A stretch of DNA of 64,000 nt from a bacterium (lineage in GTDB: Bacteria > Omnitrophota > Gorgyraeia > Zapsychrales > Zapsychraceae): contig JAUIER010000003.1 in NCBI GenBank assembly GCA_030429765.1, positions 16,402 through 80,401 on the forward strand, read 5' to 3'. Shown piece after piece: positions 1 to 42,589 of the stretch. The notes beneath the pieces were generated by a model. It ran no database searches, was not told the DNA's origin, and saw only the letters and a program-made list of their open reading frames with translations. Both the position numbers and the translations under genes were made by a program. Position 1 is the first letter of the stretch. Each line of letters opens with the position of its first letter.

Positions 1-3000
1 GATCCTCGGGAAGTATCTGGTCACGTCGAGCTTTGACTCCCAGCGCGAGCGTAAAGAAATATTCCGTAATCTGGATCCGGAAGAATATTATCCGATTTAC
101 GGGGACGGATCGGAGATTAATTACGACGCGACGAATACGCAGGGCAATCTGTATGTCTTGATCGAGTGGGATAAATCATCGGTGATCTGGGGGAATTACA
201 GTATTGGATTTGATGAAACCGAATTTGGTCGCTTCAGCCGTTCACTGTACGGGGGTAAGGTTGATTTTGAGTCTTTGAGTACCAACAAGTACGGCGACGC
301 GCGGACCAAGATCATCGCGTTTAAGGCCAAGGCGCAGCAGCGCAGCGCGCACAATGAGTTTTTGGCAACAGGCGGTTCACTCTACTTCCTCAAGCACAAA
401 GATATCGTCGAGGGATCGGATAAAGTGACGATCGAGATCCGTGACAAGATCACCGGATTGGTGACGACCTCACGCGACATGGTTGAGGGGGCGGACTATG
501 AGTTGGATTACAGTTCCGGGCGGATGGTGTTCTGGAAGCCTGTTCCAACGCTGGTCCAGTCGTATTCAATTATTGAAGATGACTTATTGGCCGGAAATCT
601 GGTTTATGTGATCGCCGACTATGAGTATGAAGTCAAGGACAAGGTTGATGAAGGAGCTATCGGGGTTCGGGCCCGTCAGGCAGTGGGAGAGAATGTGCTC
701 GTCGGAACGACCTATGTGCGTGAAGGTTTGGAGCAGGAGGATTATCAACTCCGCGGTACGGACGTGACGGTCAAGCTCGGTGAAGAGGCCTCGATCACAG
801 CAGAATACGCGCAGACATCAGCCGAAGTCCAGCCGACATTTGTCTCGACCGACGGCGGTTTGTCATTCACTGAGCTGGCGACGAGCGAGGGATCCCGCGG
901 ACGTGCCTACGGACTTAAGGGGAACGCGCGGCTCTTCAACCGTCTGGGTGTGGACGCGTACTACAAATGGATCGACAATGAATTCTCAACGTCCGCGACG
1001 ACCGCGCAGCAGGGCAAGGAGCTTATCGGGCTTGAATTGACGTATGATCTCGGCGAGCAGACACGGTTCACCCTCAAACAGGATATTCAGCGCTTACTCG
1101 ACGACGGGAACCTCCAAACGCAGCTGCAGGTGGGATCAAACCGCACATCCACGACCATCGCGCAGATCGTGCATGAGGCCCGTCAGTTCCGAATCACGGC
1201 AGAAGCCCGCCGCGATGTCGATGAAGCGGCGGATACTGAGGTTAATATTATTGCGATCCGCGGAGATTATAAGTTCAGCGATCGGTTGATCTTCTCGGCC
1301 ACGCAGCAGGCGACTATTGGCGAAGATGATTGGCGTACGACGCTGGGTGTCTCGGCCAAACCGAGTGACAAGTTGACGCTGACCTTGCAGCAGATTTTCA
1401 GTGAGGACGGATCAGCCACGACGATTGGCTTGATCGCGGATATGAACGAGCGTTTCGCGCTAACGGCCGGTTACACACTGGAAGAGGCCGGCGGTTCCAG
1501 CGCGACTATCGGCGCGATCACCAGACTTAATGAATCGATCGAGCTGGAAACCAAATTTGGTATTTCCTCAACGGAAGGGTTCAGCCGTGCGTTCGCTCTG
1601 GGGGCCAGCGGCAAGCGCAGGTTAGGCGAGGATAGTGTGCTCGACACATCATTTGGTGCCGACGATTCCGGCGTGACAACCGCTACGGCCTCCGTCGGTA
1701 CGACTTCCAAGATAACCGATACCACTGAGATTAGCAGCAGCGTCGAAGTCTCCGGAGACGGATCACGCCGACAAACAGCTGTTACGCTGGGCGGGACGAC
1801 TCAATACGGCGAAGATACAATGTTGCAGAGTCAAATCGAGTTGTCCGAGGCGTCATCGGGTTATCGCGCATCCACATTCTCCATCGGGGGACGTAAACAG
1901 GTCGATGAACAAACGCTGGTCGAGAATAAAATTTCCTTCACGGACTCCAACACGGGTGTGGATCAGACATCCGTTACGTTCGGGACAACCAAGAAGATTA
2001 CGGATGACATCGAGTTGACAACATCGAGAATTTTCGGGACGACAGGCGATAGTCAAACCACGGAGAATCAGTATGGACTATCGCTGGTCCGGGACGGTAA
2101 GAAATTGCAGGGGACGTTAAGCCGTCGTTATCAAAGCGGCGAGACTGAGATTTCGCGAACAAATATCTTCGGGTTGACCGGGGAGCTCGACGACCGATGG
2201 GCGTTGACCGGAAAGTATGAGCGATCGGAAATCGAGAACCTTGACGGATCACAGACACGTCGTGACGTGATTTCACTGGCGGGGGGATACGTTAAAAAGG
2301 ATCCGGAAACGGGGCTTGAAATGTTCAAGAGCTCTACGAAACTTGAGGTGCGTTTTGACGAGGGTAATGAGGATCGCCGTCAGTACTTGATCAGCAACGC
2401 GTCGGAAGGTCAGCTGACACCGGAGTTTTCACTCTTCAGCAAGATCGAGTTATCGGAAACGGTCGATACCAGTCTGGATACACAGATTGAACAGTACAAA
2501 GAGTTTGTGATCGGTGGGGCCTATCGACCGATCATGTTTGATAACCTCAATATTTTGGGTAAATACACGTATCTGGAAGGACGTTCGCCGGCCAGTCAGG
2601 AAGATTCAGCGGATATCGTCGAGGAGAAGGCTCAGGTCATGTCAGCCGAGGCCATTTACGATATCACGGACAAATGGCAGATCACCGAAAAATTCGCCTA
2701 CCGTATTAGCGATGAGAAGGTCGAAGGTTTTGATTTCACCAAAACCCATACGTGGTTGATGATCCATCGATTGACGTACAAGGTCAACAAGGATTGGTCG
2801 GTTAGCGGGGAGTACCGTATGCTTACTCAGCGGGAGGCCGAAGACAGCAAACGCGGCGCGCTCTTTGAAGTGTCCCGACGCGTGGGTGAATATGCGCAGC
2901 TGGGCGTCGGGTATGACTTCACGGACTTTACCGATGATCTCACCGACCTGGATTACACGACCTATGGTCCGTTCGTTCGGGTTACCGGTAAGTTCTACGA

Positions 3001-3388
3001 CCGTTCGCCGGAGGAGATTGAGCGTTCGCGGCAGAAGTGGCTGAATGAAAAGATCGACCGCTGGGCCTGGATCATGGTCCGGGAAGAGCTGGACAAGGAT
3101 TCCAGTCCGATACTACGGGAGTTGAATGATTATTTTGTTATGGCGCAGCTGGCATACGAAAAAGGCGACTACGAAGAGTCGGAGCAAATCTACAAGGATA
3201 TCATCATGGCCGGCCGGATGATGCATGGGGAAGCGGCCGAGTTCATCCGCAAGCATGTCGATAAAGAGAATCGTCTGCGGGAAATGAAGGAGCTCGCTGA
3301 TCAGTATTACAAGAACGGTCAGTACGAAAAAGCGAAGAAAATATTAGAGAAAATTCTGGAAGAGGCCGAAAAGCCTGTGTTAAAATAG
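1..3388 (+). CDS. Outer-membrane beta-barrel-like protein, 5'-partial, with a ~130-aa C-terminal helical TPR-like extension
   Basis: The reading frame is open from base 2 and the listed ATG at 158 is internal. The protein shows long runs of alternating hydrophobic/polar T/S/G-rich segments typical of beta-hairpins. The barrel-like C-terminus is ...YTTYGPFVRVTGKF. It is followed by a helical tail with the TPR-like units LAYEKGDYEESEQIYKDII and YYKNGQYEKAKKILEKILEEA, which resemble the repeats of the downstream gene. Confidence 0.5.
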   Translation, partial: ILGKYLVTSSFDSQRERKEIFRNLDPEEYYPIYGDGSEINYDATNTQGNLYVLIEWDKSSVIWGNYSIGFDETEFGRFSRSLYGGKVDFESLSTNKYGDARTKIIAFKAKAQQRSAHNEFLATGGSLYFLKHKDIVEGSDKVTIEIRDKITGLVTTSRDMVEGADYELDYSSGRMVFWKPVPTLVQSYSIIEDDLLAGNLVYVIADYEYEVKDKVDEGAIGVRARQAVGENVLVGTTYVREGLEQEDYQLRGTDVTVKLGEEASITAEYAQTSAEVQPTFVSTDGGLSFTELATSEGSRGRAYGLKGNARLFNRLGVDAYYKWIDNEFSTSATTAQQGKELIGLELTYDLGEQTRFTLKQDIQRLLDDGNLQTQLQVGSNRTSTTIAQIVHEARQFRITAEARRDVDEAADTEVNIIAIRGDYKFSDRLIFSATQQATIGEDDWRTTLGVSAKPSDKLTLTLQQIFSEDGSATTIGLIADMNERFALTAGYTLEEAGGSSATIGAITRLNESIELETKFGISSTEGFSRAFALGASGKRRLGEDSVLDTSFGADDSGVTTATASVGTTSKITDTTEISSSVEVSGDGSRRQTAVTLGGTTQYGEDTMLQSQIELSEASSGYRASTFSIGGRKQVDEQTLVENKISFTDSNTGVDQTSVTFGTTKKITDDIELTTSRIFGTTGDSQTTENQYGLSLVRDGKKLQGTLSRRYQSGETEISRTNIFGLTGELDDRWALTGKYERSEIENLDGSQTRRDVISLAGGYVKKDPETGLEMFKSSTKLEVRFDEGNEDRRQYLISNASEGQLTPEFSLFSKIELSETVDTSLDTQIEQYKEFVIGGAYRPIMFDNLNILGKYTYLEGRSPASQEDSADIVEEKAQVMSAEAIYDITDKWQITEKFAYRISDEKVEGFDFTKTHTWLMIHRLTYKVNKDWSVSGEYRMLTQREAEDSKRGALFEVSRRVGEYAQLGVGYDFTDFTDDLTDLDYTTYGPFVRVTGKFYDRSPEEIERSRQKWLNEKIDRWAWIMVREELDKDSSPILRELNDYFVMAQLAYEKGDYEESEQIYKDIIMAGRMMHGEAAEFIRKHVDKENRLREMKELADQYYKNGQYEKAKKILEKILEEAEKPVLK

Positions 3389-3421
3389 GCCTCTTGATAC
3401 TATTATTAATAAGTATAATAG

Positions 3422-6400
3422 GTGTTGTGTAAACGGCGCATGTCCGCAAATCCAAAATACATTTCTGCCTTCATTAAGTGCCTGGCCGCGGGGATTCTCT
3501 ATGCGGGAATCTCGACGGGGGGTGCAGTTCTCGCCCAGGAATTACCGGATGATCCTACATTCAAAGAGCGTAAAGCCGAAGAAGGTTACACACTTGATCT
3601 GAAAACGCTGATCAATAAATCCAAGAAACGCATCGAACAAGTTGAAGATAAGCTCAAAGAGCAGGCCAAAGAACGCCGCAATGAACGGCGTGAGGCCAAG
3701 GCGCGTGAGTACTATGAGAAAGCCCAACGTCTGTACGATGAGGGCAAATTTGATGAAGCCGTCGAACTTTGGGAGAAGGCTATCCGTATCACAGAGCATG
3801 ATGAGATGGAGGGGTATGTCCACAAGAGTGTGAGCCGTCAGCGGAAGAAGGACAAGGCGCTGAAGAAAGAAGAACAGCGCCGGCTGAAGCGACTGGAGGT
3901 CGAACGCGGGTATTCAGCCAAAGAGGTCGACAAGAAATATCGGGAGGCGGTCGAACTGTACAAAGATAAAGATTTTCTCGCCTCGAAGGTGGTTTTTGAA
4001 GAGGTCAACAAAATGTTCCCGGACCATCGCGCCACCCGCAGTTATATCGCGCTCATTGATCGACACATTGAAAAGGAACAGCGCGGAATGATCGAATCAA
4101 AGCTCAACAGTCCGGAGATGTCGTCGGCCAAGGCCAAGGCCCGCTGGAAAGAAGAGCTCAAAGAACGCGAACGCCAGCGTGAAAATGAACGCCGCGAACA
4201 GGCCGATGCGCTGTATGAAGAAGGCATCCGGCTGTACAAGAGCAAACAATACGAAAAGGCCAAGGAAAAATTCAAGGAAGTCGAATGGGTTCTGCCGGAC
4301 TACAAGCGGACGCTGCGCTATCTGTCCAAGATTGACAAAGATATCGAAAAGCACGGCGTGCGCTTTACCGAAGAGGATAAACTTCGCTATTTCAAGAATC
4401 AGGTCCGGGAAGGCAAATTGTCACCAGCCGAACAGGCCCAGGCTGAACGTAATCGAGTGGTCCAAGCGCGTGGATTTACCGATGAACGCCGGCGCAAAGA
4501 AGAGGCCGAGTTTGTCTATGATGCCGCGGAAACACTGTACAGGAAAAAATACTACAAACAGGCCCTCGAGAAATTTTATGAAGTCCGTTCGATTTATCCT
4601 GGATACAAGAAGACGGACCGTTTTATCAAGAAGCTGCACAAACGGTTGCCCGACGAGGCGGACAAACATGAAGTGGTCCAGCAGTCCTCTAGTCCGGATT
4701 ACGATGAAATGTACAAAGCTCCGCAGGGGACCAATGAGACCGCCCGCAAGGCCATCGCCAATCATCAGAACGGATTGGTCGCTCAGGCCGAAGAAAAATA
4801 CCAGCAGGCGGTTATGTTTTATAACAAGAAAAACTTTACCGAGGCGCAGCGAAAATTTATAGCGGTTGAGGCAATCATTCCAGGGTACAAGGCCACCCGC
4901 GAGCACCTCGCCCGGATCGACGGCGATATTGCGCGTCACCGCGGCCATACGTCAACCAAAACTGAAAAATCTGTAGCGTCAGCCAAACGCTCCCTATCAC
5001 CTCGTCAGGAGGAGACGGTCAAAGATAAATATCGTCAGGCCCGACGGCTCTACAAAGACAGGAATTATCAGGCCGCCAAAGACTTATTCGTCGAGATCAA
5101 TAAACTAAGTCCGGGGTACCGTTCGACTATGAAATATATTTCCCGATCGAACCGTAAACTCGAGCAGGAAAAAGCGGAGCGTGACAAACTCAAAGGCAAT
5201 GTTGGGGAAATGACCGTTGCGGCGGCGCCGGCAAGCACCATAACAGCCGGGAATTTGGGAACTCAGCGTAATTTGGGACTGGACGAGTACGAACGATTCA
5301 AACAGGCGGCCTATGCCGGTGAGGAATATCAACCAATGATGGGTGCAACCGAATTAGAACAGGTCGAGGCGCAAGCCGTGGAAGTGATTGAGGCTGTAAC
5401 GGCTGATCCCAAGCTCCTGGAAGAATATGATCCGTCCGATGCCAAGTTGTCCCGCGATGACAAGCGTCAGCTTGAGAAGCAGCAGGAGATGGTCCAGAAG
5501 GAAGTATCGCAGCAACAGAAAGATACCAAGCATCAAATGAAGCATATTATCGGCGATACGTATGACGAAGCGCGTGAGCTCTATCAGAAGGAAGAGTGGG
5601 CCGAAGCCAAGATCCGGTTTGAAACGGTGGAACGGTTGAGTCCCGGCTACCGACGGGCAAAATCGTATATCAAGCGAATCAATCGGAAGATCATGGAGCG
5701 GCAGGCCGTACCGGAGATCAAGGTGACAACCGCCGATGGAAAGCCTATTCCTGTGGTGGCGGATGTGACATTGGAAGATATTCAAAAGGCCCGTGAGGCC
5801 GAGCAAGTGGTCAGTCAGGAAGAGCTTCATCGTTCCGCACATCGCGTGGCCAAGCAAATGCAGGAGGAACAGAAACGGTTCGCTGCTTTGGCGGATCAAG
5901 CCATTCATCATTCCATGGAGGATACGGAGGAGGCCCGTAAGCAACGCGAGGCGGCCGCTGAAAAGACCAAGCGCGAACTCAAGGAGTCAATGCGGCTGCT
6001 GGAGTATGAGGCCGAGCAGCGGGAAAAAGCGGCCATGGAGGCACAACAGGCGGTCAATAAATCGTCGCGTCAAAGCCGTCGAGATTTAGATAAACTTCGT
6101 GATGACATGAAAGACGAAATGAAACAGGCGAATCGCGAGACCCTTAGGCGAATGGAAGATATGGTGGCCACCACATATGACGAAGCCAAGGATTTATTTA
6201 AGGAAAAAAGATACACGGCGGCGAAGCTTAAGTTTGAAACCGTCCAGCGACTGCATCCTGGTTACCGTCGGGTGGAATCGTATCTCAAGCGGGTTGATAA
6301 CAAGATACGTACCAATCAGGATTACACTGCCGATATGCCCAAAGATGTGTCGCAGGATCTGCTGCGATTGAAGAAACAAAAAATACGGCTCAAGGCCGAA

Positions 6401-7681
6401 GATGATGCCTATGCGGTCGCACGTGTTCGAAATAATGATTTGGAGAATGTATTGATGACGCGTAAGGAGTACACCAAGCGCGTGAGCGAATTGCATGCCA
6501 TTGATGAGGAACAAAAACGGTTGGCCGGTGAGCGTCGGATGAAACGGTTGGAACAGGAGCGCCTGTTAAAGTTGGAAGAAAAGCTGGCGTTTGAGCGGGC
6601 GCTAAAGGAAAAAGAAGCCAAGATTCGACGCAAGCAAGAAATGGACGAGCAGGAGAAAGAGGAGATTCGCCGGGCTAAACGGCGTGAGCATGACGAGCGG
6701 TTACGCGAGGCGCGTGAGCATCAGGAACGCATGGAACGCAAGTATCGCGAGGACCTCAAGCGGATTCGTAAATACGCGCTGAAACGATACCGCGACAACG
6801 ATATGATCGAGGCTCAGGCATTGACCGGACGTTATGAAGACTTGTTGGCCAAGGCCAATTTCTCCGAGCGCGAGCGGATCAAGATGCGGCAGCAATTCAG
6901 CCGCGAAAAGAAAAAGATCCTCAAGGAATACGACCGGGATCGCTACGAGGCCGAACGGATTTTGTATGAAGGTACTAGATATCAGGCCGCCGAGGCACCG
7001 ACAGCATCCGACGCAAATAAGATTCAGCTGACCCGTTCCAAGGAGTTAGAAGAGTTAGAGGCCAAGATTCGCGAAGAAGAGCGCAAACTGCAGCGGGCCC
7101 GTGAAGAAGAGGAAAAGCGTCGCCAGGAAATGGCAGAAGTACGGGCGCAGTTGACGCCTGATCTCGCGCCTCCAACAATCTCAGAGTCTAAAACCGCTTC
7201 TTTGAGCAAGGCATTCCCGGCGGATGTAGACCGCTATGTGGAAATTCGCGAGGAACGGAATCGAAAACGCGGGATGAAAATCGAAGAGATCCAGGAGCAA
7301 AAACGTAAAGAGATTGAATCCGTCGTCAAATCCCGCCAGGCGGAATTGCGTAAAAAACGCGAAGAGGTCCAGGAGGAGTTTGATAAGAATATCAAGAAGC
7401 TGTACAAAAAGGCGGTAAGGCTTTACAAAAAGAAAAATCTGCAGGAAGCTGAGATCATTTTTGAAGAGATCCAGATAATGAAGCCGGAGTATAAAAAGAC
7501 GGAAAAGTACCTGACGAAGATCCGTAAAAAGATCAAAAAATCGGATCAAACGGTGAAGGCTCAACCGGTTGAAACCGGATTCCGTGAAACCACGTCAATT
7601 CCACTGGAGCCCATCGGCGGCTCCTCCCGTCAAGATGCTGTGACAAGCGCCTTGGACGCCTTTGAACGCCAGATGTGGTAG
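3422..7681 (+). CDS. Secreted, highly charged (K/E/R-rich) repeat protein of 1419 aa with at least 9 TPR-like 'LY..K.Y..A...F..V....PGY.....YI..I...I' units
   Basis: The start is GTG at 3422, or alternatively ATG at 3440. The N-terminal signal peptide is MSANPKYISAFIKCLAAGILYAGISTGGAVLAQE. Repeats include LYEEGIRLYKSKQYEKAKEKFKEVEWVLPDYKRTLRYL, LYKDRNYQAAKDLFVEINKLSPGYRSTMKYI, LYQKEEWAEAKIRFETVERLSPGYRRAKSYI and LFKEKRYTAAKLKFETVQRLHPGYRRVESYL. Charged coiled-coil-like linkers lie between them. Only 33 nt separate this gene from the upstream one. Confidence 0.55.
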   Translation: MLCKRRMSANPKYISAFIKCLAAGILYAGISTGGAVLAQELPDDPTFKERKAEEGYTLDLKTLINKSKKRIEQVEDKLKEQAKERRNERREAKAREYYEKAQRLYDEGKFDEAVELWEKAIRITEHDEMEGYVHKSVSRQRKKDKALKKEEQRRLKRLEVERGYSAKEVDKKYREAVELYKDKDFLASKVVFEEVNKMFPDHRATRSYIALIDRHIEKEQRGMIESKLNSPEMSSAKAKARWKEELKERERQRENERREQADALYEEGIRLYKSKQYEKAKEKFKEVEWVLPDYKRTLRYLSKIDKDIEKHGVRFTEEDKLRYFKNQVREGKLSPAEQAQAERNRVVQARGFTDERRRKEEAEFVYDAAETLYRKKYYKQALEKFYEVRSIYPGYKKTDRFIKKLHKRLPDEADKHEVVQQSSSPDYDEMYKAPQGTNETARKAIANHQNGLVAQAEEKYQQAVMFYNKKNFTEAQRKFIAVEAIIPGYKATREHLARIDGDIARHRGHTSTKTEKSVASAKRSLSPRQEETVKDKYRQARRLYKDRNYQAAKDLFVEINKLSPGYRSTMKYISRSNRKLEQEKAERDKLKGNVGEMTVAAAPASTITAGNLGTQRNLGLDEYERFKQAAYAGEEYQPMMGATELEQVEAQAVEVIEAVTADPKLLEEYDPSDAKLSRDDKRQLEKQQEMVQKEVSQQQKDTKHQMKHIIGDTYDEARELYQKEEWAEAKIRFETVERLSPGYRRAKSYIKRINRKIMERQAVPEIKVTTADGKPIPVVADVTLEDIQKAREAEQVVSQEELHRSAHRVAKQMQEEQKRFAALADQAIHHSMEDTEEARKQREAAAEKTKRELKESMRLLEYEAEQREKAAMEAQQAVNKSSRQSRRDLDKLRDDMKDEMKQANRETLRRMEDMVATTYDEAKDLFKEKRYTAAKLKFETVQRLHPGYRRVESYLKRVDNKIRTNQDYTADMPKDVSQDLLRLKKQKIRLKAEDDAYAVARVRNNDLENVLMTRKEYTKRVSELHAIDEEQKRLAGERRMKRLEQERLLKLEEKLAFERALKEKEAKIRRKQEMDEQEKEEIRRAKRREHDERLREAREHQERMERKYREDLKRIRKYALKRYRDNDMIEAQALTGRYEDLLAKANFSERERIKMRQQFSREKKKILKEYDRDRYEAERILYEGTRYQAAEAPTASDANKIQLTRSKELEELEAKIREEERKLQRAREEEEKRRQEMAEVRAQLTPDLAPPTISESKTASLSKAFPADVDRYVEIREERNRKRGMKIEEIQEQKRKEIESVVKSRQAELRKKREEVQEEFDKNIKKLYKKAVRLYKKKNLQEAEIIFEEIQIMKPEYKKTEKYLTKIRKKIKKSDQTVKAQPVETGFRETTSIPLEPIGGSSRQDAVTSALDAFERQMW
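3700..7545 (+). repeat. Dispersed intragenic repeats (~45 codons each, at least 9 copies) encoding TPR-like helix pairs ending in a P-G-Y motif
   Basis: The protein-level consensus A..LY.....Y..A...F..V....PGY.....Y...I...I recurs along the 3422..7681 product. It follows the TPR consensus positions (L/W4, Y/L8, A11, A20, F24, P32). Confidence 0.6.
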
Positions 7682-7687
7682 GCGTTT

Positions 7688-9997
7688 TTGCTCATCCCGC
7701 AATTTCTTACCATGCACCGACAATTCAGTGTTGACATTCCGGCGCTTTTGCATCAGTATTTGTCTTGGATCATTTTGACGCCGGCCATTCTATTACTTCC
7801 ATTTCACACCCTTGTGTACGCCGGTACAGATATTCTCAAGGATAACACCATGACCGCTGATTCCAAACTCAACAGACTCGCCCAGGAAAAAAGTCCGTAC
7901 CTACTGCAGCACGCGACCAATCCGGTGGATTGGTATCCCTGGTCGAATGAGGCCTTTGACAAGGCGCGGCGCGAGGACAAGCCGATCTTTTTGTCTATCG
8001 GATACTCCACCTGCCATTGGTGTCATGTGATGGAGCATGAGTCTTTCGAGGATGCAAAGATTGCTGAGTACTTGAACGCACATTTTGTTGCCATCAAGGT
8101 AGACCGTGAGGAGCGGCCGGATGTTGATACTATCTACATGAGCGCGGTTCAGACCATGACCGGACAGGGCGGTTGGCCGTTGTCGGTATTCTTAACGCCG
8201 GATAAAAAACCATTTTTCGGCGGGACCTATTTCCCGCCATATCAACGCTGGGGTTCACCCGGATTTCTCGATGTGCTGCGCTCCATTCAGAATTCATGGA
8301 CGAATAACCGTGAACAATTGGTGGCGTCGAGCGAATCGTTGAGCGACATGCTCGCCGAACGTCAATCCGGTCTCAATCCCGGCGATCCGTTAGGGGCACC
8401 GGTTCTGGAAAAAGCCTATAATCTTTTCGCCCGCAACTATGATCGGACATTTGCCGGATTTGGGGATGCTCCCAAATTTCCCACCAGTCACAATTTATCG
8501 TTTCTGCTGCGCTATTGGAAGCGCACGGCGGATGCTCAAGCTCTCGAGATGGTCGAACAAACGTTGAGACGAATGGCCGAGGGAGGAATGTATGATCAAC
8601 TCGGCGGCGGATTTCATCGGTATGCCACCGACCGGGAGTGGCAGGTGCCGCATTTTGAAAAGATGCTTTACGATCAAGCCATCCTGGCCCGGACATACTT
8701 GGAGGCCTATCAAATCACTCGAAATAGTTTTTACGCCGACATCGCCCGCGATATATTTGACTACTGTCTACGTGATTTGCGGGATAGCCTCGGCGGATTT
8801 CATTCGGCCGAGGATGCGGATAGTATCGATCCCTATGAGTTTGAACATACAAGTGTAGAGCTGGAAGGGGCCGAGAAGAAAGAAGGCGCGTTTTATTTGT
8901 GGACGTATACGCATATGCAGCAGATTCTCGGTGAGGCAGATGCCAAGATTTTTGCCGATGTCTACGGCGTTAAGGCAAACGGGAATGCCAAGTCAGACCC
9001 GCATGGAGAGTTCACCGGGAAAAATATTTTGCATATCGATCAGAATCTTGAGCAGGTCGCGGAATCATCAGGAAAGAGCCTGGAGGGAGTTCAGGAGATT
9101 TTGGAGCGCGCTCGCGCCAAGCTGCTCGAGGTGCGACGAACCCGTTTGCGCCCGCATCTGGATGACAAGGTATTGACCGACTGGAATGGATTGATGATAT
9201 CGGCCTTGGCGTATGGGGGCTGCGTGTTGGGAGAGAGCAGGTATCTTGAAGCGGCCGAAGAAGCTGCCAATTTCATCTTACATAACATGTTCGACCGGGG
9301 CCGTCTGCTGCATCGCTATCGGGACGGCGAATCGGGCATTACCGGAACGTTAGAAGACTACGCATTTTTAACAAATGCCTTATTAGATCTCTATGAGGCA
9401 ACCTTCGATGTCCTATATATAGAGAAGGCAGTCGAACTTACCGGTCAGATGCTAGAGTATTTTTGGGATGATGAACGGGGCGGATTTTATCTGACGGCCT
9501 CAGATGCCGAGGCGTTGATCCTGCGTCCCAAGGAGATTTATGATGGCGCGATTCCATCGGGAAATTCGGTGGCGGCCCTGGTGTTGGCGCGCTTGTATCA
9601 CATGACATTCGACGCCGATTATTTGAGTCGGTTGGAGAAAATGAGCCAGACATTTGCCGATACCGTGCGTCAGTACCCAAGCGCGTACGCGCAATTTTTG
9701 ATCGCTATTGATATGGCGGTCGGACCGGCCCAGGAGATTGTGATGGCCGGCCCGGTGGACGATGCCGGAATTCATCATCTGACGAATCAAATTTACGCGC
9801 GTTTTCTGCCGAACCGTGTGCTGCTACATCGGGGGAGCGACGCGGATGACAATTCCATCATATTTAAGATTGCCCCTTTTGTGGCCAATCAACCGCCAAT
9901 CGAGAATCAGCCGACGGTCTATATCTGTGAAAATCATCAATGCAAACAACCGACCAATGATCCAGCCGTTTTTATTCAACGGCTGGAGGATTTATAA
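7688..9997 (+). CDS. Thioredoxin-domain protein of the YyaL / DUF255 (COG1331) family with a C-terminal six-hairpin (N-acylglucosamine 2-epimerase-like) domain
   Basis: Motifs: [54 protein letters not shown] (thioredoxin-like CxxC) and WTNNREQLV. The listed TTG start at 7688 adds a hydrophobic 54-aa extension. The canonical family start fits ATG 7850 ([22 protein letters not shown]). Confidence 0.8.
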
Positions 9998-10011: not shown

Positions 10012-11823
10012 ATGAAATTTATCAAGGTACTACTCATCATTATTCTGGTGCTCATCGTTCTGATGGGCGTTGGTGCTTTTATTTTTATCAAGACATTTGA
10101 CGCGAATCAGTATAAAGACAAGATCACCCAGGAAATGACCAAGGCCCTTAACCGGCCGGTCAATATGGACCGAATCGACCTGAAGATGTCGGCCGCCAGC
10201 GGGGTTTCGCTTGAGGTTGTTAATCTGGATATCAAGGATATGCTGGAGGTTGAGTCAACCTACCTAGCTGTTGACTTGATGCAGTACGCCAAGAATCGGA
10301 AGATTGTTATTCCGAAGGCGATCGTCAAGTCACCCAAGATCACCTTTGTTCAGGCCGGAACCGGAGCCTCCGGGGCGGCGGGTAGCGGGTCGACGTCTGC
10401 ATCTGGGGCTTCAACGAGCGGTGTCCAGGAAATCCCTGAAGTTTCAATTGAGACCATCCGGATCGAGAACGGGACATTGCACTATCGGGACATCACACAG
10501 GCCAAGCCTGTTGACATCAAGATTCAGCAGCTGGATGTGGAGATCAAGGATGTCGCATTGGATAAGCCGTTTCCGTATAAGGTCGCGCTTGCCGTTTTTT
10601 CTGATCAGCAGCAAACGGTGAAGCTGGACGGATTGGCTACATATTTGTCTAAGAGCGGAGAGATACGTGTTCAAGATCTGAAGGTGGATGTGCTGCTTGG
10701 AAAGATGTCATTGGCGCAAATTCTTCAGGCCGCGCCCGACCTGGCCGGATCAGGGCTTCAATCGATTGACGGCGGGACATTGATTCTTAATCTCAAAGAG
10801 CTGCTGCTAAAATCGGACGGACAATTAGGTGATGTCTCGGCCGACGGTCAGCTTAAGGATCTCAAGCTTCGGGTTGAACAGCTTCCGGGGCCGGTTGCGA
10901 TGGATGCCGATTTTCAGATGACAGGAACGGATGTGCGCATCGGACAGGCTGTGGTCAAACTAGCCGACGGCGAAGTCAAGCTGTCGGGGAATTTAACCGA
11001 TGTCATGCAGTCGATGGGATATGATCTGAAGCTGACGATCAATCAAGTGGACGTTACCAAGTTGATGGATCAATCAGAATTGCCGGTCAAGATTGCCGGA
11101 TCGGCTCAGGGGCAATTTGATGTCACCGGGCAGGGGATTGATGAAGCGGCGATCCGCTCAAATCTCTCCGGGGCTGGGCAATTTCGGATCGCGGACGGCC
11201 GGATCAAGGACAAGAATTTGCTGGGGATCGTGGTCAATCAGCTGGCCTGGTTTCCGGATTTTTCGAATCGCTTTAAATCGAACCTTTCGCCCAAGTATCA
11301 GGAGCGGATCAAGGCGGACGATACGGTGCTCAATGACGTGTCCGCGGATGTTCAAATCGCGGCCGGGCAGATCCAACTCAAGAATGTTCAGCTTGATGCG
11401 GATGGCTTCGTCTACAGCGCGTCCGGCCGGATGGACTTTGATCAAAATCTGAATCTGAAGTCTTCATTCAGTTTTGATCAGGAGCTTAGTGATACAATGC
11501 TCAAAATGCAGGGTGAACTATCGGCCTTATTGGACAATTCCCGGCGCGTGAATTTTCCGTTCAAAGATTATCAAGGCAAAGCGGATAAATACGTGCCGAG
11601 ACCGGACACCAAAGAGCTGTTTAAGCAGGGCGTGGCGAACCGCGGTAAGGCGGAACTCAAGAAAGTTTTGTTTAAGGCATTAGACATGGAAGAACAATCG
11701 GCGCCCAAGGTCGAAGGCACTTTGAACACGGGCGTTGAAAGTAATTTATCAGAACCCAAAGAAGTTAGTACAGAAGAAGTTCTGATCGATAATGTCCTTG
11801 ACGCTATTCCGTTATTTAAGTAG
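10012..11823 (+). CDS. AsmA-family outer-membrane biogenesis protein
   Basis: N-terminal TM helix MKFIKVLLIIILVLIVLMGVGAFIFI followed by KTFDANQYKDKITQEMTKALNRPVNMDRIDLKM, which is typical of the AsmA N-terminus. The long beta-rich remainder also fits. Confidence 0.7.
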   Translation: MKFIKVLLIIILVLIVLMGVGAFIFIKTFDANQYKDKITQEMTKALNRPVNMDRIDLKMSAASGVSLEVVNLDIKDMLEVESTYLAVDLMQYAKNRKIVIPKAIVKSPKITFVQAGTGASGAAGSGSTSASGASTSGVQEIPEVSIETIRIENGTLHYRDITQAKPVDIKIQQLDVEIKDVALDKPFPYKVALAVFSDQQQTVKLDGLATYLSKSGEIRVQDLKVDVLLGKMSLAQILQAAPDLAGSGLQSIDGGTLILNLKELLLKSDGQLGDVSADGQLKDLKLRVEQLPGPVAMDADFQMTGTDVRIGQAVVKLADGEVKLSGNLTDVMQSMGYDLKLTINQVDVTKLMDQSELPVKIAGSAQGQFDVTGQGIDEAAIRSNLSGAGQFRIADGRIKDKNLLGIVVNQLAWFPDFSNRFKSNLSPKYQERIKADDTVLNDVSADVQIAAGQIQLKNVQLDADGFVYSASGRMDFDQNLNLKSSFSFDQELSDTMLKMQGELSALLDNSRRVNFPFKDYQGKADKYVPRPDTKELFKQGVANRGKAELKKVLFKALDMEEQSAPKVEGTLNTGVESNLSEPKEVSTEEVLIDNVLDAIPLFK

Positions 11824-11941: not shown

Positions 11942-13699
11942 ATGGTCAATAAATCCGATATCATTTATAACGAAGCACGAAACAATTTACGAGTTAAAGA
12001 ATCACGAAGCGTTTTGTGGCGAGTGAACGATGGAGACATCAAAGGTAAAGGTCAAATCCGTAACATTTCAACCACCGGCATGCTGCTCGAGACCAACTCG
12101 AATTTTGTTCCTACCGAAGGCTGCCGATTTTCATTTGATTCCGCACTAGGACACGATAATTTTATCCCGCAAAATGGAAAGCTGGTTTGGCACAAACGCA
12201 AGCCGTTCTCCAAGAATAAATATCTTTGCGGGATTCGCTTTGTTGAACCCGGCGAGTATGTGCTGACCAAGCTTCGACAGCGCGTTCAAAAGGGTATCAA
12301 GCATATTGCCAACGCCCGCCGCATGCGCAAAGTTGTCAATTTTATGATGATCATCGGTATGATCGCCATGACCGCGTATGTACTCTGGGAAGCCAGTCAT
12401 GTCTACCAAAATATGAATACCACCAACCGCCGCATGCTGGATGCCTCGCAGCAACAGGCCCTGTTGACACAGAGCTTTTCCAGCCGATTGGATGTCAGTG
12501 AAATGCAGCTGGCCAGTGTCACGGAAGAGTTGGATGCCACACGTACCTTATATAGGGAAAGCCAGGGGCTGCTTGGGGAGGTTCGCGTAGAATTGGAGCT
12601 GACCAAGGCCGTTTTGGCGGATACCGAATCATTGCTTGAACAAACCAAGACGGATCTTGTCGGAGTTCAAGGTGAGCTGTCAACCACTCAATCTGATCTT
12701 GCCGCCCGAACCAAAGAATTGGAAGGCGTTAAAGAAGAATTACTTGGTGCACAAACCAATTTGGCCGGCGTTAGTGCCGGACGTGATGAGCTGGCGGCCA
12801 AAATTAAGGCGTTGGAAGAATCGAACACCGGGGCCAAGGCTGATTTTGAAAACACCATTCAGCTGCTTGAGCTCAAGAATCTTCAGCTGAACGAAGAGAT
12901 GGCCAAGCTTCAGCAGAAAATCACCGACATCACCGCCGCGAATGTGGCCGCTGCCACGACGAGCGGTACCGTTGAGTCCCGCAATATCGCGTTGACACAA
13001 GAGATAGAAACTCTCAAGTCGCAGTTAGCGGCTGTATCTGAAAGTCAAACCGTCGGTGCTGATCAGAAAATCATCCAGCTGAACGAACAAATCGACAGTC
13101 TCAAGGCGCAATTGGTGACCGCGAACAATCAGAATGCCAACCTCAAAGAAGTCCGCATAGACAATCAAAAGTTGAACGACGATATCATCCGGCTCAAGAA
13201 AATGCTTTTGGCGGTCTCGGAAAGTAAAGTGGCGGGCGCCGAGGCCAAGATGGCCGAGTTGAATACAGAGATCGACGGGCTCAAGGGTGAATTGGCAGCA
13301 TTGTCAGCCGATAATGTTCTCACCAAAGAGCAAGGACAAAATTTAATCAAGACCTATCGTCAGGAAATGGCCAAGGTCAAAGATAAGCTCAAACATTTCC
13401 GCGCCGAGGCCAAGAAAGTCCGTGAGGACGCCTTGATCGAGCGTGACCGAATTCAAATGTCGCTGGGCAACCAGGGATACTTCATGAAAAACGGTAAGGC
13501 CGTCCAAGTGGACTACGCCAAGTATGAGAATGTCGGCTTAAATGAAGTCCGCCAAAATCAGGAGATCGAAGCGGTGGCCATCAATGTTCCGGAGGTGGGA
13601 GCCACATCCGCGACACCGGCCGTCGAGCCGACACCGGCGAGTGTAGACAAGCCAATCGACAATCGTCAGTTTGAAATTGACGTCACGTTTGTCGAATAA
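11942..13699 (+). CDS. PilZ-domain (c-di-GMP binding) membrane-anchored coiled-coil protein
   Basis: The N-terminus carries the PilZ motifs RNNLR (RxxxR) and NISTTG (D/NxSxxG). A TM segment MMIIGMIAMTAYVLW follows. Next is a ~350-aa heptad-rich coiled coil with an internal duplication (LAAVSESQTVGADQKIIQLNEQIDSLKAQL / LLAVSESKVAGAEAKMAELNTEIDGLKGEL). Confidence 0.55.
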   Translation: MVNKSDIIYNEARNNLRVKESRSVLWRVNDGDIKGKGQIRNISTTGMLLETNSNFVPTEGCRFSFDSALGHDNFIPQNGKLVWHKRKPFSKNKYLCGIRFVEPGEYVLTKLRQRVQKGIKHIANARRMRKVVNFMMIIGMIAMTAYVLWEASHVYQNMNTTNRRMLDASQQQALLTQSFSSRLDVSEMQLASVTEELDATRTLYRESQGLLGEVRVELELTKAVLADTESLLEQTKTDLVGVQGELSTTQSDLAARTKELEGVKEELLGAQTNLAGVSAGRDELAAKIKALEESNTGAKADFENTIQLLELKNLQLNEEMAKLQQKITDITAANVAAATTSGTVESRNIALTQEIETLKSQLAAVSESQTVGADQKIIQLNEQIDSLKAQLVTANNQNANLKEVRIDNQKLNDDIIRLKKMLLAVSESKVAGAEAKMAELNTEIDGLKGELAALSADNVLTKEQGQNLIKTYRQEMAKVKDKLKHFRAEAKKVREDALIERDRIQMSLGNQGYFMKNGKAVQVDYAKYENVGLNEVRQNQEIEAVAINVPEVGATSATPAVEPTPASVDKPIDNRQFEIDVTFVE

Positions 13700-16070: not shown

Positions 16071-19000
16071 ATGACAAAATCAGCAGTCAAGTACTCCATT
16101 AATAGCAACGGCTATTTCGTAATAGAAGATTATAACCGATCCAAAGTTTTCAGTAGTTTCTTTCCGGGCGTTGCCGGGCTTTGGGGGATTCCGATGTGGG
16201 TGTTTTATGTGAACAGAGGTCAGGGGATAGCCAGTTTCGGTATTCAGTCCAAGGACAAGGCGATCATGGAATTTCAGCCCGCCAACAAATCCTACCGGCT
16301 CACAACCCTTCAAGGGTTTCGCACATTTATCAAGGTCAAACAAGGACAGAAAACCACCTACTGGGAGCCCTTCCAGAATAATTTTGATGGGACAGACTTT
16401 AAGAAAAAACAGAATATGTATATATCGGCGCATGATCTGATCCTGGAAGAAGTCAATCAGGATTTGGGGTTGACGGTCCGGGTCAATTATTTCACATTGC
16501 CGGACGAGCCGTATTCCGCGCTGATGCGGCGTGTTTCCGTCGAGAATACAAGCGGTAAGAAGTGTTCTATCGAGATCCTGGACGGTATGCCGGCGATTGT
16601 GCCGTTCGGACTCAAAGATTGGCTAATCAAAAATCTGGCCCGTACGGTCGAGGCTTGGGTTAAGGTCCGTAATCTCGATGAGCGGGCGCCGTTCTATCAG
16701 CTGAATGTTGAGGTCGCGGATACGTCACAGGTCACGCACATTACGGAAGGCAATTTCTTCTTCAGCTTTGACGCCACGGCGTCGAAGAAGACTATGCTTC
16801 GGCCGATCGTCGAGGCGACGAAGATCTTCGGATCTAATCTGGATTTCAGCAGTCCCGAAAAATTTGTCAACAATACCTTCCAGCCGTCGTCCAAACAAAC
16901 GACCAACAATAAAACGCCATGCGCCTTCGCGCATCACACGTTCAGTCTGCCGGCAGGCAAGACGCATGAAATTGTTTCAGTCTTCGGTTACGCCCGGGAT
17001 GTGGATCAGCTCAAAGAGGTCCAGAAGCAGGTCGTTCAGGAAGGTTTTGTTCCGGCTAAAGAATCACAAAATCGTGAGATCATCGATGATATCAAAAACT
17101 ACGCGCAGACTAACAGCGCGTCGGAGAATTTCAATTTGTATGCCGGACATACATTTCTGGACAATATTCTACGCGGCGGTTTGCCGATTTCGGTGAGAAC
17201 GAGCGAAGGGAATATTGCCTTCAACGTATACAGCCGTAAACACGGCGATCTGGAACGCGATTATAATCATTTTGTCGTCGCGCCGACATTTTATTCTCAA
17301 GGCAACGGGAATTACCGCGATGTGAATCAGAACCGGCGGAATGATGTCTGGTTCAATGCTGACGTTAAGGAAAGTCACATCGTCAGTTTTCTTAACTTGT
17401 CACAGGCGGATGGATATAATCCATTGGTGGTGAAGGGAACGTCGTTCCGGGTCATGGAACGGAAGGACGCGGACCGGATCATTGATGAGTTTGTGGAGTC
17501 GGGCGACAAAGATCTATTGCGTGATTTTCTGATGAAGAACTTTCAGCCAGGTGAACTGCTGGTCTTCGTCGACGAGAATGACATCAAGATTCGTGAAAAC
17601 GTCCGCGTTTTTCTCGGAAGCGTTCTTGAGATCAGCCAAAAGCAGGAGATGGCGGATCACGGGGAAGGATTCTGGTCGGATCACTGGACATACAATCTGG
17701 ACTTGATTCAGAGTTATCTGTCATTGTACCCCGAGCGTCTGCGTGAACTGCTGATCGAAAACAACGAGTTCAGATTTTATCTGAATCACCATTATGTCCG
17801 GCCGCGAGATCAGCGATTTTACCTGACTGAACATGGGGTGCGTCAGTATGAATCGGTGTGTGATGACAGTAAAGACTTTGATCCGTCGAAGTTTAATTTT
17901 CGGCTCAAGACCCGCAGCGGACAAGGCGAGGAATACACCACAAACCTTTTATGCAAACTATTGTGTTTGATCGTCAATAAGGCGGCCAGTCTGGACCCCA
18001 GCGGATGCGGGGTGGAGATGGAGGCCGATAAACCCAATTGGTATGACGCGTTGAATGGCTTACCGGGTCTCGTCGGCTCGTCGGTGTCCGAGACATTTGA
18101 GCTGCAGCGATACAGTGCGTTCTTACTGGACGCCATCGATAAACTCGAGCTGAAGGACAAGGATGAGTTTCCAATCTTTGAAGAGCTGGCTTCGTTTATT
18201 ACGGGCGTCACGAATTTGTTGAGGGTCAATCATTCGGCTCTGGACTATTGGAACAAGTCCAATGATATCAAGGAAAACTATCGTCAGCGGGTCCGCCGTT
18301 TTATCGACGGGCGGGAAACCAAGATGACGGTCCATGAAATTCGCGCGTTCTTGGAGTTGGTGATCAAGAAAACCACGGAATCCTTAAAGATCGCGCGTAA
18401 CAAAAAGGGACAACTGGCCACATATTTCTATCATGAGGTTACAGACTACAAAAAAATCGAAGGTCAGCATAATGAAGAGCACACGCTGGTCCGTCCGCTG
18501 GCCTTTAAAAAGCATGCGCTGCCGTTGTTCCTCGAGGGCTATGTGCACGCCATGAAGATTCAAACCAGTGTCGCCGATGCCCGGAAGATGTACCGTGAAA
18601 TTCAAAAAAGCGATCTTTATGATGAAAAACTCAAGATGTACAAGGTGAACACAAATCTGGATTCGGAAACCGAGGAGATCGGACGCACACGGATATTCCC
18701 GTCGGGATGGCTGGAAAATGAATCGGTGTGGCTACACATGGAGTATAAGTTCATCCTTGAAATCCTGAGGGCTGAGCTGTTTGAAGAGTTTTACGACAAT
18801 TTCAAGAACGTGTTTGTACCGTTCCAAAAGCCGGCGCGTTATGGCCGAAGTATTTTAGAAAACTCATCGTTTATTGTCAGCAGCGCGCATGAGGACAAAG
18901 ATCTGCATGGACGCGGTTTTGTCGCCCGTCTGTCCGGTAGTACGGCTGAATTTCTGCATATCTGGCTGGTGATGAACGCGGGAGAGCGTCCATTTGCCTT

Positions 19001-26865: not shown

Positions 26866-27036
26866 TCTGAAACGAGTGATCAGTGATCGGTAACGCGAGT
26901 ATTGCTGGATACCAAGTTCAGGGGCGGTAGGACAAAGGGCTGATATATCAGCGTGTCCTGCCAAGATGAGTCAACCATCCGGGTGTCGCGTGTCACATCA
27001 CCGGTCTCTCTCCCAAAAAACTGTAAGTCATTCATC

Positions 27037-29533: not shown

Positions 29534-29534
29534 A

Positions 29535-31702: not shown

Positions 31703-31706
31703 GCCG

Positions 31707-42461: not shown

Positions 42462-42534
42462 GAGCCTCTAGCTCATCCGGTAGAGCATCTCCCTTTTAAG
42501 GAGAGGGTGGCGCGTTCGAGTCGCGCGAGGCTCA
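42462..42534 (+). tRNA. tRNA-Lys (anticodon TTT)
   Basis: Cloverleaf checked by hand. The 7-bp acceptor stem gagcctc/gaggctc pairs perfectly. Anticodon loop cttttaa. T-loop ttcgagt. Discriminator A. Confidence 0.85.
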
Positions 42535-42589
42535 CTCTTGTTCCTCCGGCTCAGACCTGAGATAGTCCGAGTCGGAGGAAAACATTTTT

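What the first reader, a model, noticed from the sequence alone, without database searches (positions are those of the whole stretch)
1..7681. Outer-membrane beta-barrel protein and 1419-aa secreted charged protein share the same TPR-like 'PGY' module: candidate envelope-spanning pair
The upstream beta-barrel-like protein ends with an unusual ~130-aa helical tail after its terminal ...VTGKF strand. That tail carries the same Y..A..LY..g.Y..A...F motif that recurs at least 9 times in the downstream protein, which is secreted and 34% charged. A 33-nt gap points to co-transcription. A shared module between an OM barrel and a giant periplasmic/surface coiled-coil protein suggests a docking or scaffold system, e.g. 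a tether or surface-layer anchor. YyaL and AsmA envelope genes follow in the same strand block.
Basis: partly seen in the sequence, partly recalled or inferred. Interest (0 to 1): 0.7.

Follow-up and report, generated by a model that had tools for sequence, protein, structure and literature searches.

The report
Outer-membrane barrel tail with cognate partner

Summary
The gene pair is real and conserved, but the proposed link, a shared 'PGY' module, does not hold in this window.

- **Gene 1 (2..3388, 5'-truncated).** It models as about 46 membrane-type beta-strands ending in the beta-signal ...VRVTGKF, followed by a 130-aa four-helix tail ('TAIL').
- **Gene 2 (3440..7681).** It is an exported, basic, all-helical protein of 164 kDa. 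It has a conserved N-terminal domain ('NTD'), eight TPR-like PGY modules and ER/K-rich helices.
- **Tail versus module.** TAIL matches the PGY profile only over a generic TPR hairpin. The score is 8 bits, the same as an unrelated TPR protein in the window. A TAIL profile run against 1.84 billion proteins retrieves generic TPR_12 proteins, not PGY proteins.
- **Co-occurrence.** In 30 of 30 loci with a TAIL-bearing barrel, an NTD gene lies immediately downstream. In 36 tail-less relatives, none does.
- **Independent context.** Six of those 30 loci carry TAIL on an unrelated barrel, a ~700-aa ShlB/FhaC-type TpsB transporter. One of these also has a canonical TpsA substrate beside it.

The best reading is a portable periplasmic TAIL–NTD docking pair that couples outer-membrane barrels to a long scaffold or tether protein. 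No function has been shown. I found no description of it in the literature or in family libraries.

The parts
2..3388 (+). Gene 1, 5'-truncated by the window edge. It is the C-terminal 1128 aa of a ~2960-aa outer-membrane protein. Orthologs have a signal peptide, a beta-helix-like N-terminus, and Big_6/CarboxypepD_reg/DUF11(CLIPPER) domains.
   Evidence: The ortholog L002:1000-9876 is 2958 aa and 74% identical over the visible part.
149..541 (+). Conserved pre-barrel beta-sandwich-like domain carrying the family signature [GA]TGGS[LF][YF][YF].
   Evidence: AF2 strands at aa 50-177, pLDDT 80-93. The pattern was used for, and confirmed in, 588 genome loci.
599..2995 (+). Membrane beta-barrel region of about 46 antiparallel strands with short turns. 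It ends in the beta-signal YGPFVRVTGKF (2963-2995).
2996..3385 (+). TAIL domain: 130 aa, four helices, containing two TPR-like hairpins. Junction sequence is F-YDRSPEEIER...RWAW.
   Evidence: pLDDT around 90; alignment A3. The full-length domain is found only at the C-termini of giant barrels and of ShlB-type TpsB transporters.
3278..3361 (+). Last TPR-like hairpin of TAIL (REMKELADQYYKNGQYEKAKKILEKILE). This is the only part resembling the A/B helices of the PGY module.
   Evidence: hhalign probability 82%, 28 columns. HMM score 8.0 bits. Pfam TPR_2 24 bits, below the cut-off.
3389..3439 (+). Intergenic spacer: 33 nt to GTG 3422, 51 nt to ATG 3440. It is in the same frame as both genes but holds five further in-frame stop codons. 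No terminator-like hairpin.
3440..7681 (+). Gene 2, the partner protein: 1413 aa from ATG 3440, or 1419 aa from GTG 3422. The mature form is 164.5 kDa, pI 9.4, net charge +47 and has no Cys.
3440..3535 (+). Sec-type signal peptide, with predicted cleavage VLA|QE.
   Evidence: Read from the sequence. The ...A|QE site is conserved across 60 homologs. No dedicated predictor was available.
3551..3844 (+). NTD, the most conserved part of the partner: EGYxxDLKxLIxKSKxxI helix, RRNxxREE helix, and TPR#1 ending in ITEHxEMxGY.
   Evidence: Invariant columns in A2. pLDDT 92-97. An NTD HMM finds it downstream of every TAIL-bearing barrel.
3926..4075 (+). PGY module 1 (PDH variant).
   Evidence: 64.3 bits.
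4202..4351 (+). PGY module 2 (PDY).
   Evidence: 76.8 bits.
4505..4648 (+). PGY module 3.
   Evidence: 50.1 bits.
4787..4933 (+). PGY module 4.
   Evidence: 68.2 bits.
5018..5164 (+). PGY module 5.
   Evidence: 57.9 bits.
5555..5692 (+). PGY module 6.
   Evidence: 57.6 bits.
6167..6310 (+). PGY module 7.
   Evidence: 57.4 bits.
6500..6799 (+). Most extreme ER/K-rich segment, 57-70% charged. It resembles a single-alpha-helix spacer.
   Evidence: Charge profile.
7391..7540 (+). PGY module 8 (PEY).
   Evidence: 54.3 bits.
7625..7678 (+). Conserved C-terminal motif sRxxxVxxALDxFExxMW of the long partner forms.
   Evidence: C-termini of 60 homologs. Nearly invariant L column at the end of A2.
7688..9997 (+). 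DUF255/YyaL-type thioredoxin-fold gene. It is a neighbour but not a constant one.
   Evidence: Pfam PF03190, 1.4e-80. Present in L002, absent in L004.
10012..11823 (+). AsmA-family gene. It is a neighbour but not a constant one.
   Evidence: Pfam PF05170, 9.8e-21. Present in L004, absent in L002.

Best explanation
Genes 1 and 2 form a cognate two-gene cassette of Omnitrophota.

- **Gene 1** is a very large outer-membrane beta-barrel protein. Its last strand, the beta-signal ...VRVTGKF, is followed by a 130-aa helical TAIL domain. That position should place TAIL in the periplasm.
- **Gene 2** is exported by a Sec signal peptide.
- **Proposed contact.** The partner's conserved ~100-aa N-terminal domain (NTD) is the element that docks onto TAIL.
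- **Proposed role.** The rest of the partner is a basic, Cys-free chain of eight separate three-helix TPR-like PGY modules joined by ER/K-rich helices. It would act as a long periplasmic tether or scaffold coupling the barrel to other envelope structures. In this it would substitute for the OmpA-type peptidoglycan anchor that some relatives carry.

*Shown:* barrel-like fold, tail, module architecture, strict co-occurrence, and reuse of TAIL+NTD on a second barrel family.

*Inferred:* physical TAIL–NTD binding, periplasmic location of the partner, and the tether/scaffold role.
For: 2. **TAIL follows the beta-signal in two barrel families.** The identical full-length TAIL also follows the C-terminal strand (..FSxDF) of ~700-aa POTRA_2+ShlB TpsB transporters. 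By established knowledge of the Omp85 fold, the C-termini of those 16-strand barrels face the periplasm.
3. **Co-occurrence.** In 24 distinct giant-barrel+TAIL loci and 6 distinct TpsB+TAIL loci, a signal-peptide gene carrying the NTD starts within about 0-120 nt downstream on the same strand. Among 36 tail-less relatives with at least 3 kb downstream, none has it. Fisher p is about 1e-18, not corrected for phylogeny.
4. **The NTD is the constant part.** Minimal partners of 242-283 aa keep the NTD with no or few PGY modules. TAIL and NTD scores diverge in parallel, Spearman 0.67.
5. **The partner is not simply a TPS substrate.** In L088-L090 the TpsB+TAIL gene also has a canonical TPS-domain TpsA beside it.
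6. **Alternative anchors in relatives.** Some tail-less relatives carry an OmpA-type peptidoglycan-binding domain instead. Others fuse partner-like sequence directly to the barrel end.
7. **Partner model.** It is all-helical, with confidently modelled modules (pLDDT above 90) but low pTM of 0.33, i.e. beads on a string.
Against: - No direct test of binding was possible.
- The tailed giant-barrel loci belong largely to one lineage, so 24 of the 30 co-occurrences are not independent.
- The partner's helical segments, if extended, would exceed a typical periplasmic width. The ER/K stretch alone is 100 aa, about 15 nm, and the chain has roughly 1380 residues. This fits lateral scaffolding or a surface fibre better than a simple perpendicular tether.
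- No peptidoglycan- or membrane-binding domain was detected in the partner.
Confidence: 0.45

Rival explanations
1. Two-partner-secretion-like export. The partner would be a substrate passed across the outer membrane through the adjacent barrel. TAIL would be its periplasmic receptor and the NTD its secretion domain. The result would be a long, basic surface fibre.
For: - One of the two TAIL-bearing barrel families is a bona fide ShlB/FhaC-type TpsB with a POTRA_2 domain.
- The gene order, barrel then large exported protein, resembles shlBA.
- The partner has a conserved N-terminal region followed by a variable repetitive body. It is Cys-free and potentially longer than the periplasm.
- Fusions of partner-like sequence to the barrel C-terminus are compatible with inverse-autotransporter-style export.
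Against: - The L088-L090 locus has a canonical TPS-domain TpsA (1562 aa, PF05860) next to the TpsB+TAIL gene, and the partner there is only 273 aa.
- The partner lacks a TPS domain.
- Partners can be as short as 242 aa.
- The modules are compact folded TPR-like units typical of periplasmic adaptors. The best family-level hints are BamD (TIGR03302) and source labels of 'TolA-binding protein'.
Confidence: 0.2
2. Dedicated assembly or targeting factor. The partner would be a BamD-like periplasmic TPR chaperone needed to insert barrels whose beta-signal is internal because TAIL follows it.
For: - There is one partner gene per TAIL-bearing barrel gene.
- There are weak matches to BamD (TIGR03302, 35.6 bits) and to the SycD/LcrH chaperone TPR family.
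- The beta-signal is internal in every TAIL-bearing barrel.
Against: - Scores are far below the family cut-offs (35.6 against 81.4).
- Chaperones are not expected to be 1400-2270 aa long with 9-19 modules and ER/K spacers.
- Fused variants keep the partner-like sequence permanently attached.
Confidence: 0.1
3. The tail would itself be a PGY-type module that stacks homotypically with the partner's PGY modules.
For: - Profile-profile alignment of TAIL positions 95-122 with module columns 3-30 gives probability 82%, against 6% for a control TPR.
- In some relatives the post-barrel tail is a genuine PGY module, at 25-58 bits: three partly partial proteins (P0027, P0034, P0040), two of them named Candidatus Scalindua sp., plus P0064 and P0067. 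P0051 matches more weakly at 17.7 bits.
Against: - The window's tail scores 8 bits, equal to an unrelated TPR protein. It lacks the PGY turn and the third helix.
- A TAIL profile run over 1.84e9 proteins lists TPR_12/TPR_10 NB-ARC/CHAT proteins, and no gene-2-family protein appears among the top 150.
- Partners without PGY modules still pair with TAIL.
Confidence: 0.08
4. No functional coupling. The adjacency would be inherited gene order within one lineage.
For: Downstream synteny (PilZ, YgjP, PF1765-like, YqeY, deacetylase, ~1090-aa gene) is also conserved among the window, L002 and L004. This shows that gene order is generally stable in this clade.
Against: - The same TAIL→NTD adjacency recurs with an unrelated barrel family in entirely different neighbourhoods: ExbBD/Trk, FecR/PAS kinase, and glycosyltransferase contexts.
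- Tail-less paralogs in Omnitrophota never have it.
- Fusion proteins exist.
Confidence: 0.05

Closest known systems
OmpM/SlpA-type and OmpA/Pal-type outer-membrane tethers
   Different: Here the periplasmic element lies after the barrel's C-terminus, not before it. It is split over two genes (TAIL plus a separate partner). No SLH, OmpA or other wall-binding domain was detected in either window gene.
BamA–BamD and Tol–Pal CpoB (YbgF): periplasmic TPR adaptors of outer-membrane machines
   Same: An exported TPR-like protein is associated with an Omp85-family or other outer-membrane barrel. Weak hits to BamD exist, and some sources label homologs 'TolA-binding protein'.
   Different: Scores are far below the family cut-offs. 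The partner is 5-10 times longer. Its TPR-like units are isolated three-helix modules separated by charged helices rather than a contiguous superhelix (pTM 0.33, Foldseek TM around 0.1). There is no lipobox.
Two-partner secretion (type Vb; FhaC/FhaB, ShlB/ShlA)
   Same: An adjacent barrel gene and large exported-protein gene. TAIL is found on genuine ShlB/POTRA_2 transporters.
   Different: The window barrel is not Omp85-like. It has about 46 strands, and no POTRA was detected in the ortholog. The partner has no TPS domain. One TpsB+TAIL locus has its own canonical TpsA in addition.
SprA, the type IX secretion translocon and largest solved single-chain barrel (36 strands)
   Different: There is no sequence relationship. 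The strand count here is about 46 within only 800 residues, with minimal loops. Closure into one barrel is unverified. SprA as the largest known barrel is stated in bioRxiv 10.64898/2026.03.07.710327.
BcsC/PgaA/AlgK-AlgE type TPR-plus-barrel exporters
   Different: In those systems the TPR region is N-terminal to the barrel and contiguous. Here the helical domain is C-terminal, short, and paired with a separate multi-module protein.

Membership tests
Outer-membrane beta-barrel protein (OMBB) | Antiparallel beta-meander with an even number of membrane-length strands | tested here: met
   46 strands of 9-16 aa between aa 200 and 996, with short turns and alternating hydrophobicity.
Outer-membrane beta-barrel protein (OMBB) | C-terminal beta-signal ending in an aromatic residue | tested here: met
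   YGPFVRVTGKF at aa 988-998. It is the true C-terminus in tail-less relatives, but is internal here because TAIL follows it.
Outer-membrane beta-barrel protein (OMBB) | Structural similarity to solved membrane barrels | tested here: met
Outer-membrane beta-barrel protein (OMBB) | N-terminal signal peptide | not testable with these tools
   The 5' end lies outside the window. The ortholog L002:1000-9876 begins with a signal-peptide-like sequence.
TPR repeat proteins (Pfam TPR_2, PF07719) | Score above the Pfam gathering threshold | tested here: met
   Gene 2 scores 42.8 bits against a cut-off of 27, through TPR#1 at aa 94-126. The gene-1 tail scores 24.1 bits, below the cut-off.
PGY module (defined here from 507 modules of 62 gene-2 homologs) | Full 50-column match including the P-[GDE]-[YH] turn and third helix | tested here: not met
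   The gene-1 tail scores 8.0 bits over HMM positions 10-27 only. Gene 2 has 8 full matches at 50-77 bits.
Two-partner secretion (T5bSS) | POTRA domains plus a 16-strand ShlB/Omp85 barrel in the transporter | tested here: not met
   No POTRA, ShlB or Omp85 hit in gene 1 or in its full-length ortholog.
Two-partner secretion (T5bSS) | TPS domain (PF05860) at the N-terminus of the exoprotein | tested here: not met
   No TPS hit in gene 2.
BamD/YfiO (TIGR03302) | Score above the curated cut-off (81.4 bits) | tested here: not met
   Gene 2 scores 35.6 bits, with no single stretch passing.
Classical autotransporter (T5aSS) | 12-strand C-terminal autotransporter barrel domain | tested here: not met
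   No autotransporter family hit. About 46 strands are predicted.
TAIL–NTD cassette (defined here) | TAIL domain directly after the last barrel strand, with an NTD-bearing signal-peptide gene immediately downstream on the same strand | tested here: met
   In the window, TAIL scores 178 bits and NTD 140 bits, with a 33-51 nt gap. The pattern holds in 30/30 assessable loci.

The most novel reading that the evidence does not exclude
TAIL–NTD would be a portable 'plug and socket' by which Omnitrophota attach different outer-membrane barrels (a giant adhesin-like barrel and TpsB transporters) to long, basic ER/K-plus-TPR rods. Together these would form a previously unknown periplasmic skeleton or outer-membrane tethering system in place of Lpp/OmpA/Pal-type anchors. 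The ~46 strands of gene 1 would close into a single barrel, larger than SprA, the largest one solved.
Probability: 0.2. Interest if true: 0.8.

Novelty: new variant of a known kind. Interest (0 to 1): 0.6.

Why it matters
Omnitrophota are uncultured, mostly ultra-small and possibly host-dependent bacteria (PMC10066038). Almost nothing is known about their envelope.

- **A testable interaction.** A domain that is always appended after the beta-signal of two unrelated barrel families, and always encoded next to one partner family, points to a specific protein-protein contact. It could explain how these cells anchor or organise large outer-membrane machines.
- **An assembly question.** It raises the question of how BAM handles barrels whose beta-signal is internal.
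- **An unannotated barrel family.** The barrel has no Pfam or NCBIfam model. It occurs in at least 588 places in a collection of species-representative genomes spanning several phyla. It may be among the largest beta-barrel architectures known.

Tried and rejected
- **Recovering the missing 5' end of gene 1.** An exact look-up of gene 2 found only 7.7-kb contigs that stop short. The ortholog L002 was used instead.
- **Sequence search of both proteins against PDB.** It returned only generic TPR hits.
- **Foldseek of the gene-2 model against PDB.** It returned generic TPR superhelices with TM around 0.1 and gave no functional lead.
- **afdb50 fold search.** The library was unavailable.
- **Literature searches.** Searches on Omnitrophota outer-membrane barrels, giant surface proteins, and TpsB C-terminal extensions found nothing on this pair.
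- **Internal duplication of the barrel.** Comparing the two halves showed only hairpin-level repeats, with no evidence for two duplicated barrels.
- **A read-through or fused AF2 'complex'.** I considered modelling TAIL plus gene 2 this way but did not run it.
- **Gene 1 and gene 2 as one disrupted gene.** Rejected. They share a frame, but the spacer holds five in-frame stops after the gene-1 stop codon (six in a row), gene 2 has its own signal peptide, and the split is conserved in all orthologs.
- **YyaL and AsmA as members of the system.** Rejected, because each is missing in one of the two closest syntenic loci.

Full report
**What is in the window**

The region 1-7681 holds two same-strand ORFs. 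Gene 1 runs off the left edge (2..3388, 1128 aa visible). Gene 2 runs from GTG 3422 or ATG 3440 to 7681; an independent gene call on a public contig uses the ATG, giving 1413 aa. Gene 1 stops at TAG 3386-3388. The spacer is 33 nt to the GTG or 51 nt to the ATG and has no terminator-like hairpin.

Named homologs are almost all from Candidatus Omnitrophota. The closest genome is an Omnitrophota MAG with a 1-Mb contig. It is 74% identical over gene 1 and has the same gene order.

**Gene 1 is a very large outer-membrane barrel protein**

- Full-length orthologs are 2958-2973 aa. They have a signal-peptide-like start, a beta-helix-like N-terminus, and Big_6, CarboxypepD_reg and DUF11 (CLIPPER, an isopeptide-type) domains. 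The window therefore shows only the C-terminal ~38%.
- An AF2 model built on 76 sequences (mean pLDDT 75.5, pTM 0.58) gives three parts. There is a small beta-sandwich at aa 50-180, then 46 consecutive strands of 9-16 aa with short turns from aa 200 to 996, then four helices.
- The last strand, YGPFVRVTGKF, is the exact C-terminus of dozens of tail-less relatives.
- No Pfam or NCBIfam model covers the barrel, and no solved structure is related by sequence.
- The family is widespread. At least 588 confirmed places were found in a collection of species-representative genomes from Omnitrophota, Planctomycetota, Acidobacteriota and Gammaproteobacteria.
- I could not inspect coordinates. Whether the 46 strands close into one barrel is therefore open. 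The largest solved single-chain barrel, SprA, has 36 strands.

**Gene 2 is an exported, basic, all-helical modular protein**

- It starts with a hydrophobic signal sequence. The ...A|QE site is conserved in 60 homologs.
- The mature chain is 164.5 kDa, with pI 9.4, net charge +47, no cysteine and 42% D/E/K/R.
- An HMM built from 507 modules of 62 homologs finds eight full 'PGY' modules (50-77 bits) plus a half module, TPR#1. Homologs carry 6-19 modules.
- AF2 on aa 1-620 gives mean pLDDT 82 and pTM 0.33. Each module is a confident three-helix unit, but their mutual arrangement is undefined. Foldseek finds only generic TPR proteins, at TM around 0.1.
- The best-conserved part is not the modules. 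It is the ~100 aa after the signal peptide, the NTD (EGYxxDLKxLIxKSK..., RRNxxREE, and TPR#1 ending in ITEHxEMxGY), which contains several invariant residues. A C-terminal motif, ALDxFE, is also conserved.

**Does the tail share the PGY module? No.**

- The tail scores 8.0 bits on the module HMM, over positions 10-27 only. This covers helix A and the start of helix B, with no PGY turn and no third helix. An unrelated BatC-like TPR ORF in the same window scores 8.3 bits.
- Profile-profile comparison aligns 28 columns with 82% probability, against 6% for a control TPR, so there is at most a faint extra resemblance in one hairpin.
- The decisive test was a profile of 19 tails searched against 1.84 billion representative proteins. 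It returned full-length tails and many multi-repeat TPR_12/TPR_10 proteins of the NB-ARC, CHAT and HET type. No gene-2-family protein appeared in the top 150. The tail is therefore a domain of its own, which I call TAIL.
- Some relatives do carry true PGY modules after the barrel, at 25-58 bits: P0027, P0034 and P0040 (two of them named Candidatus Scalindua sp.), plus P0064 and P0067. P0051 matches more weakly at 17.7 bits. Others fuse a TPR#1-like element or a long E/K/R/Q coil directly to the barrel end: P0061, P0018 and P0015.

**The pair is nevertheless real, and the link is TAIL–NTD**

- Among 80 genome loci, every barrel gene that aligns through the tail and has readable downstream DNA is followed on the same strand by a gene with a signal peptide and the NTD.
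- The one apparent exception, L029, has a 242-aa partner that keeps the NTD and lacks PGY modules.
- None of the 36 tail-less loci with at least 3 kb downstream has such a gene.
- The TAIL profile also found the complete domain at the C-terminus of ~700-aa proteins. These are ShlB/FhaC-type TpsB transporters (POTRA_2 plus ShlB barrel), with the same junction (...FSxDF-EDRxPEEIERI...W.W). At least one is annotated as Omnitrophota.
- All six distinct TpsB+TAIL loci with downstream sequence again have an NTD-bearing signal-peptide gene starting 1-38 nt downstream. Their surrounding neighbourhoods are otherwise unrelated to each other.
- The total is 30/30 against 0/36.
- TAIL and NTD scores fall in parallel across loci, with Spearman 0.67. 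Both statistics are inflated by shared ancestry. The TpsB context provides the independent replicate.

**Mechanism**

- TAIL directly follows the last barrel strand in two barrel families, one of them the 16-strand Omp85/TpsB fold, whose termini face the periplasm by established knowledge. TAIL should therefore be periplasmic.
- The partner is Sec-exported and carries no recognisable outer-membrane targeting feature.
- The simplest model is that the NTD docks on TAIL in the periplasm, and the partner's modular, ER/K-rich body serves as a tether or scaffold.
- Two observations favour this over export of the partner. In L088-L090 the TpsB+TAIL gene has a canonical 1562-aa TPS-domain TpsA next to it, and the partner there is only 273 aa. 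Some tail-less relatives instead carry an OmpA-type peptidoglycan-binding domain, which suggests that periplasmic anchoring is a recurrent need of this barrel family.
- Against a simple perpendicular tether, the partner is potentially much longer than a periplasm and has no detectable wall- or membrane-binding domain.
- A TPS-like export model and a BamD-like assembly-factor model remain open.

**Context**

Each is missing in one of the two closest syntenic loci.
- The further downstream order is conserved in these loci: PilZ-coiled-coil, YgjP, PF1765-like, YqeY, polysaccharide deacetylase, and a ~1090-aa protein with no known domain. This most likely reflects lineage synteny.

**Novelty and verdict**

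- Searches of the held literature and of Pfam, NCBIfam and PDB found no description of TAIL, the NTD, the PGY protein family or the barrel family.
- In kind it resembles known barrel-plus-periplasmic-adaptor arrangements. It differs in three ways: the post-beta-signal position of the docking domain, its portability between barrel families, and the architecture of the partner.
- I rate it a new variant of a known kind, with moderate to high interest.

Noticed in passing
window 19503-25736 (+): A 2077-aa ORF combining Methyltransf_11, GNAT acetyltransferase and ABC1 atypical-kinase matches. A gene of similar size (2156 aa) sits at the same syntenic position in L002.
   Followed up: no
window 16071-19349 (+): A 1092-aa ORF with no Pfam match. 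It is conserved at the same syntenic position in L002 (1096 aa) and L004 (1090 aa).
   Followed up: no
window 25870-33524 (+): A complete Bat/MoxR-type operon: MoxR AAA_3, DUF58, DUF4381, BatA-VWA, VWA, a TPR (BatC-like) protein and BatD. Its TPR protein served as the generic-TPR control.
   Followed up: partly
window 11942-13699 (+): A PilZ domain fused to a ~450-aa SMC-like coiled coil. A PilZ gene is conserved at this position in L002 and L004.
   Followed up: no
TAIL C-termini in relatives (P0006, P0012, P0014, P0203, P0209; L085-L092): Many TAIL domains end in a short ...P[LI]x[LVI][EK]F strand with a terminal aromatic residue. It looks like a second beta-signal after the helices. The window's TAIL ends earlier (...EKPVLK) and lacks it.
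   Followed up: partly
window 3386-3439: Genes 1 and 2 are in the same reading frame. They are separated by six in-frame stop codons within 36 nt, counting the gene-1 stop.
   Followed up: yes
L020 (DYOU01000006.1): A contig with a typical giant barrel+TAIL and an 18-module partner is labelled Candidatus Elulimicrobium. NCBI places that genus in the Patescibacteria group, a group not expected to have an outer membrane. This is probably a binning or labelling problem.
   Followed up: partly
L088-L090 and L094: A FecR-domain gene lies divergently upstream of the TpsB+TAIL gene in two different TpsB+TAIL locus types. In L088-L090 a PAS-histidine-kinase-PilZ gene lies beyond it.
   Followed up: no
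L091:12098-13540: In this TpsB+TAIL locus the partner carries an extra ~300-aa N-terminal domain before the NTD, followed by a single PGY module. The next gene looks like a YD/RHS-repeat protein.
   Followed up: no
whole window: Almost all long ORFs are on the + strand, and GC skew is positive in every 2-kb bin. A tRNA-Lys/Leu/Gly cluster lies at 42462-42834.
   Followed up: no
P0097 and similar relatives (one search list): In some tail-less relatives an OmpA-type peptidoglycan-binding domain sits between Ig-like domains N-terminal to the barrel (aa 620-715 of 1857). This implies that at least part of the large N-terminal region is periplasmic in those proteins.
   Followed up: partly
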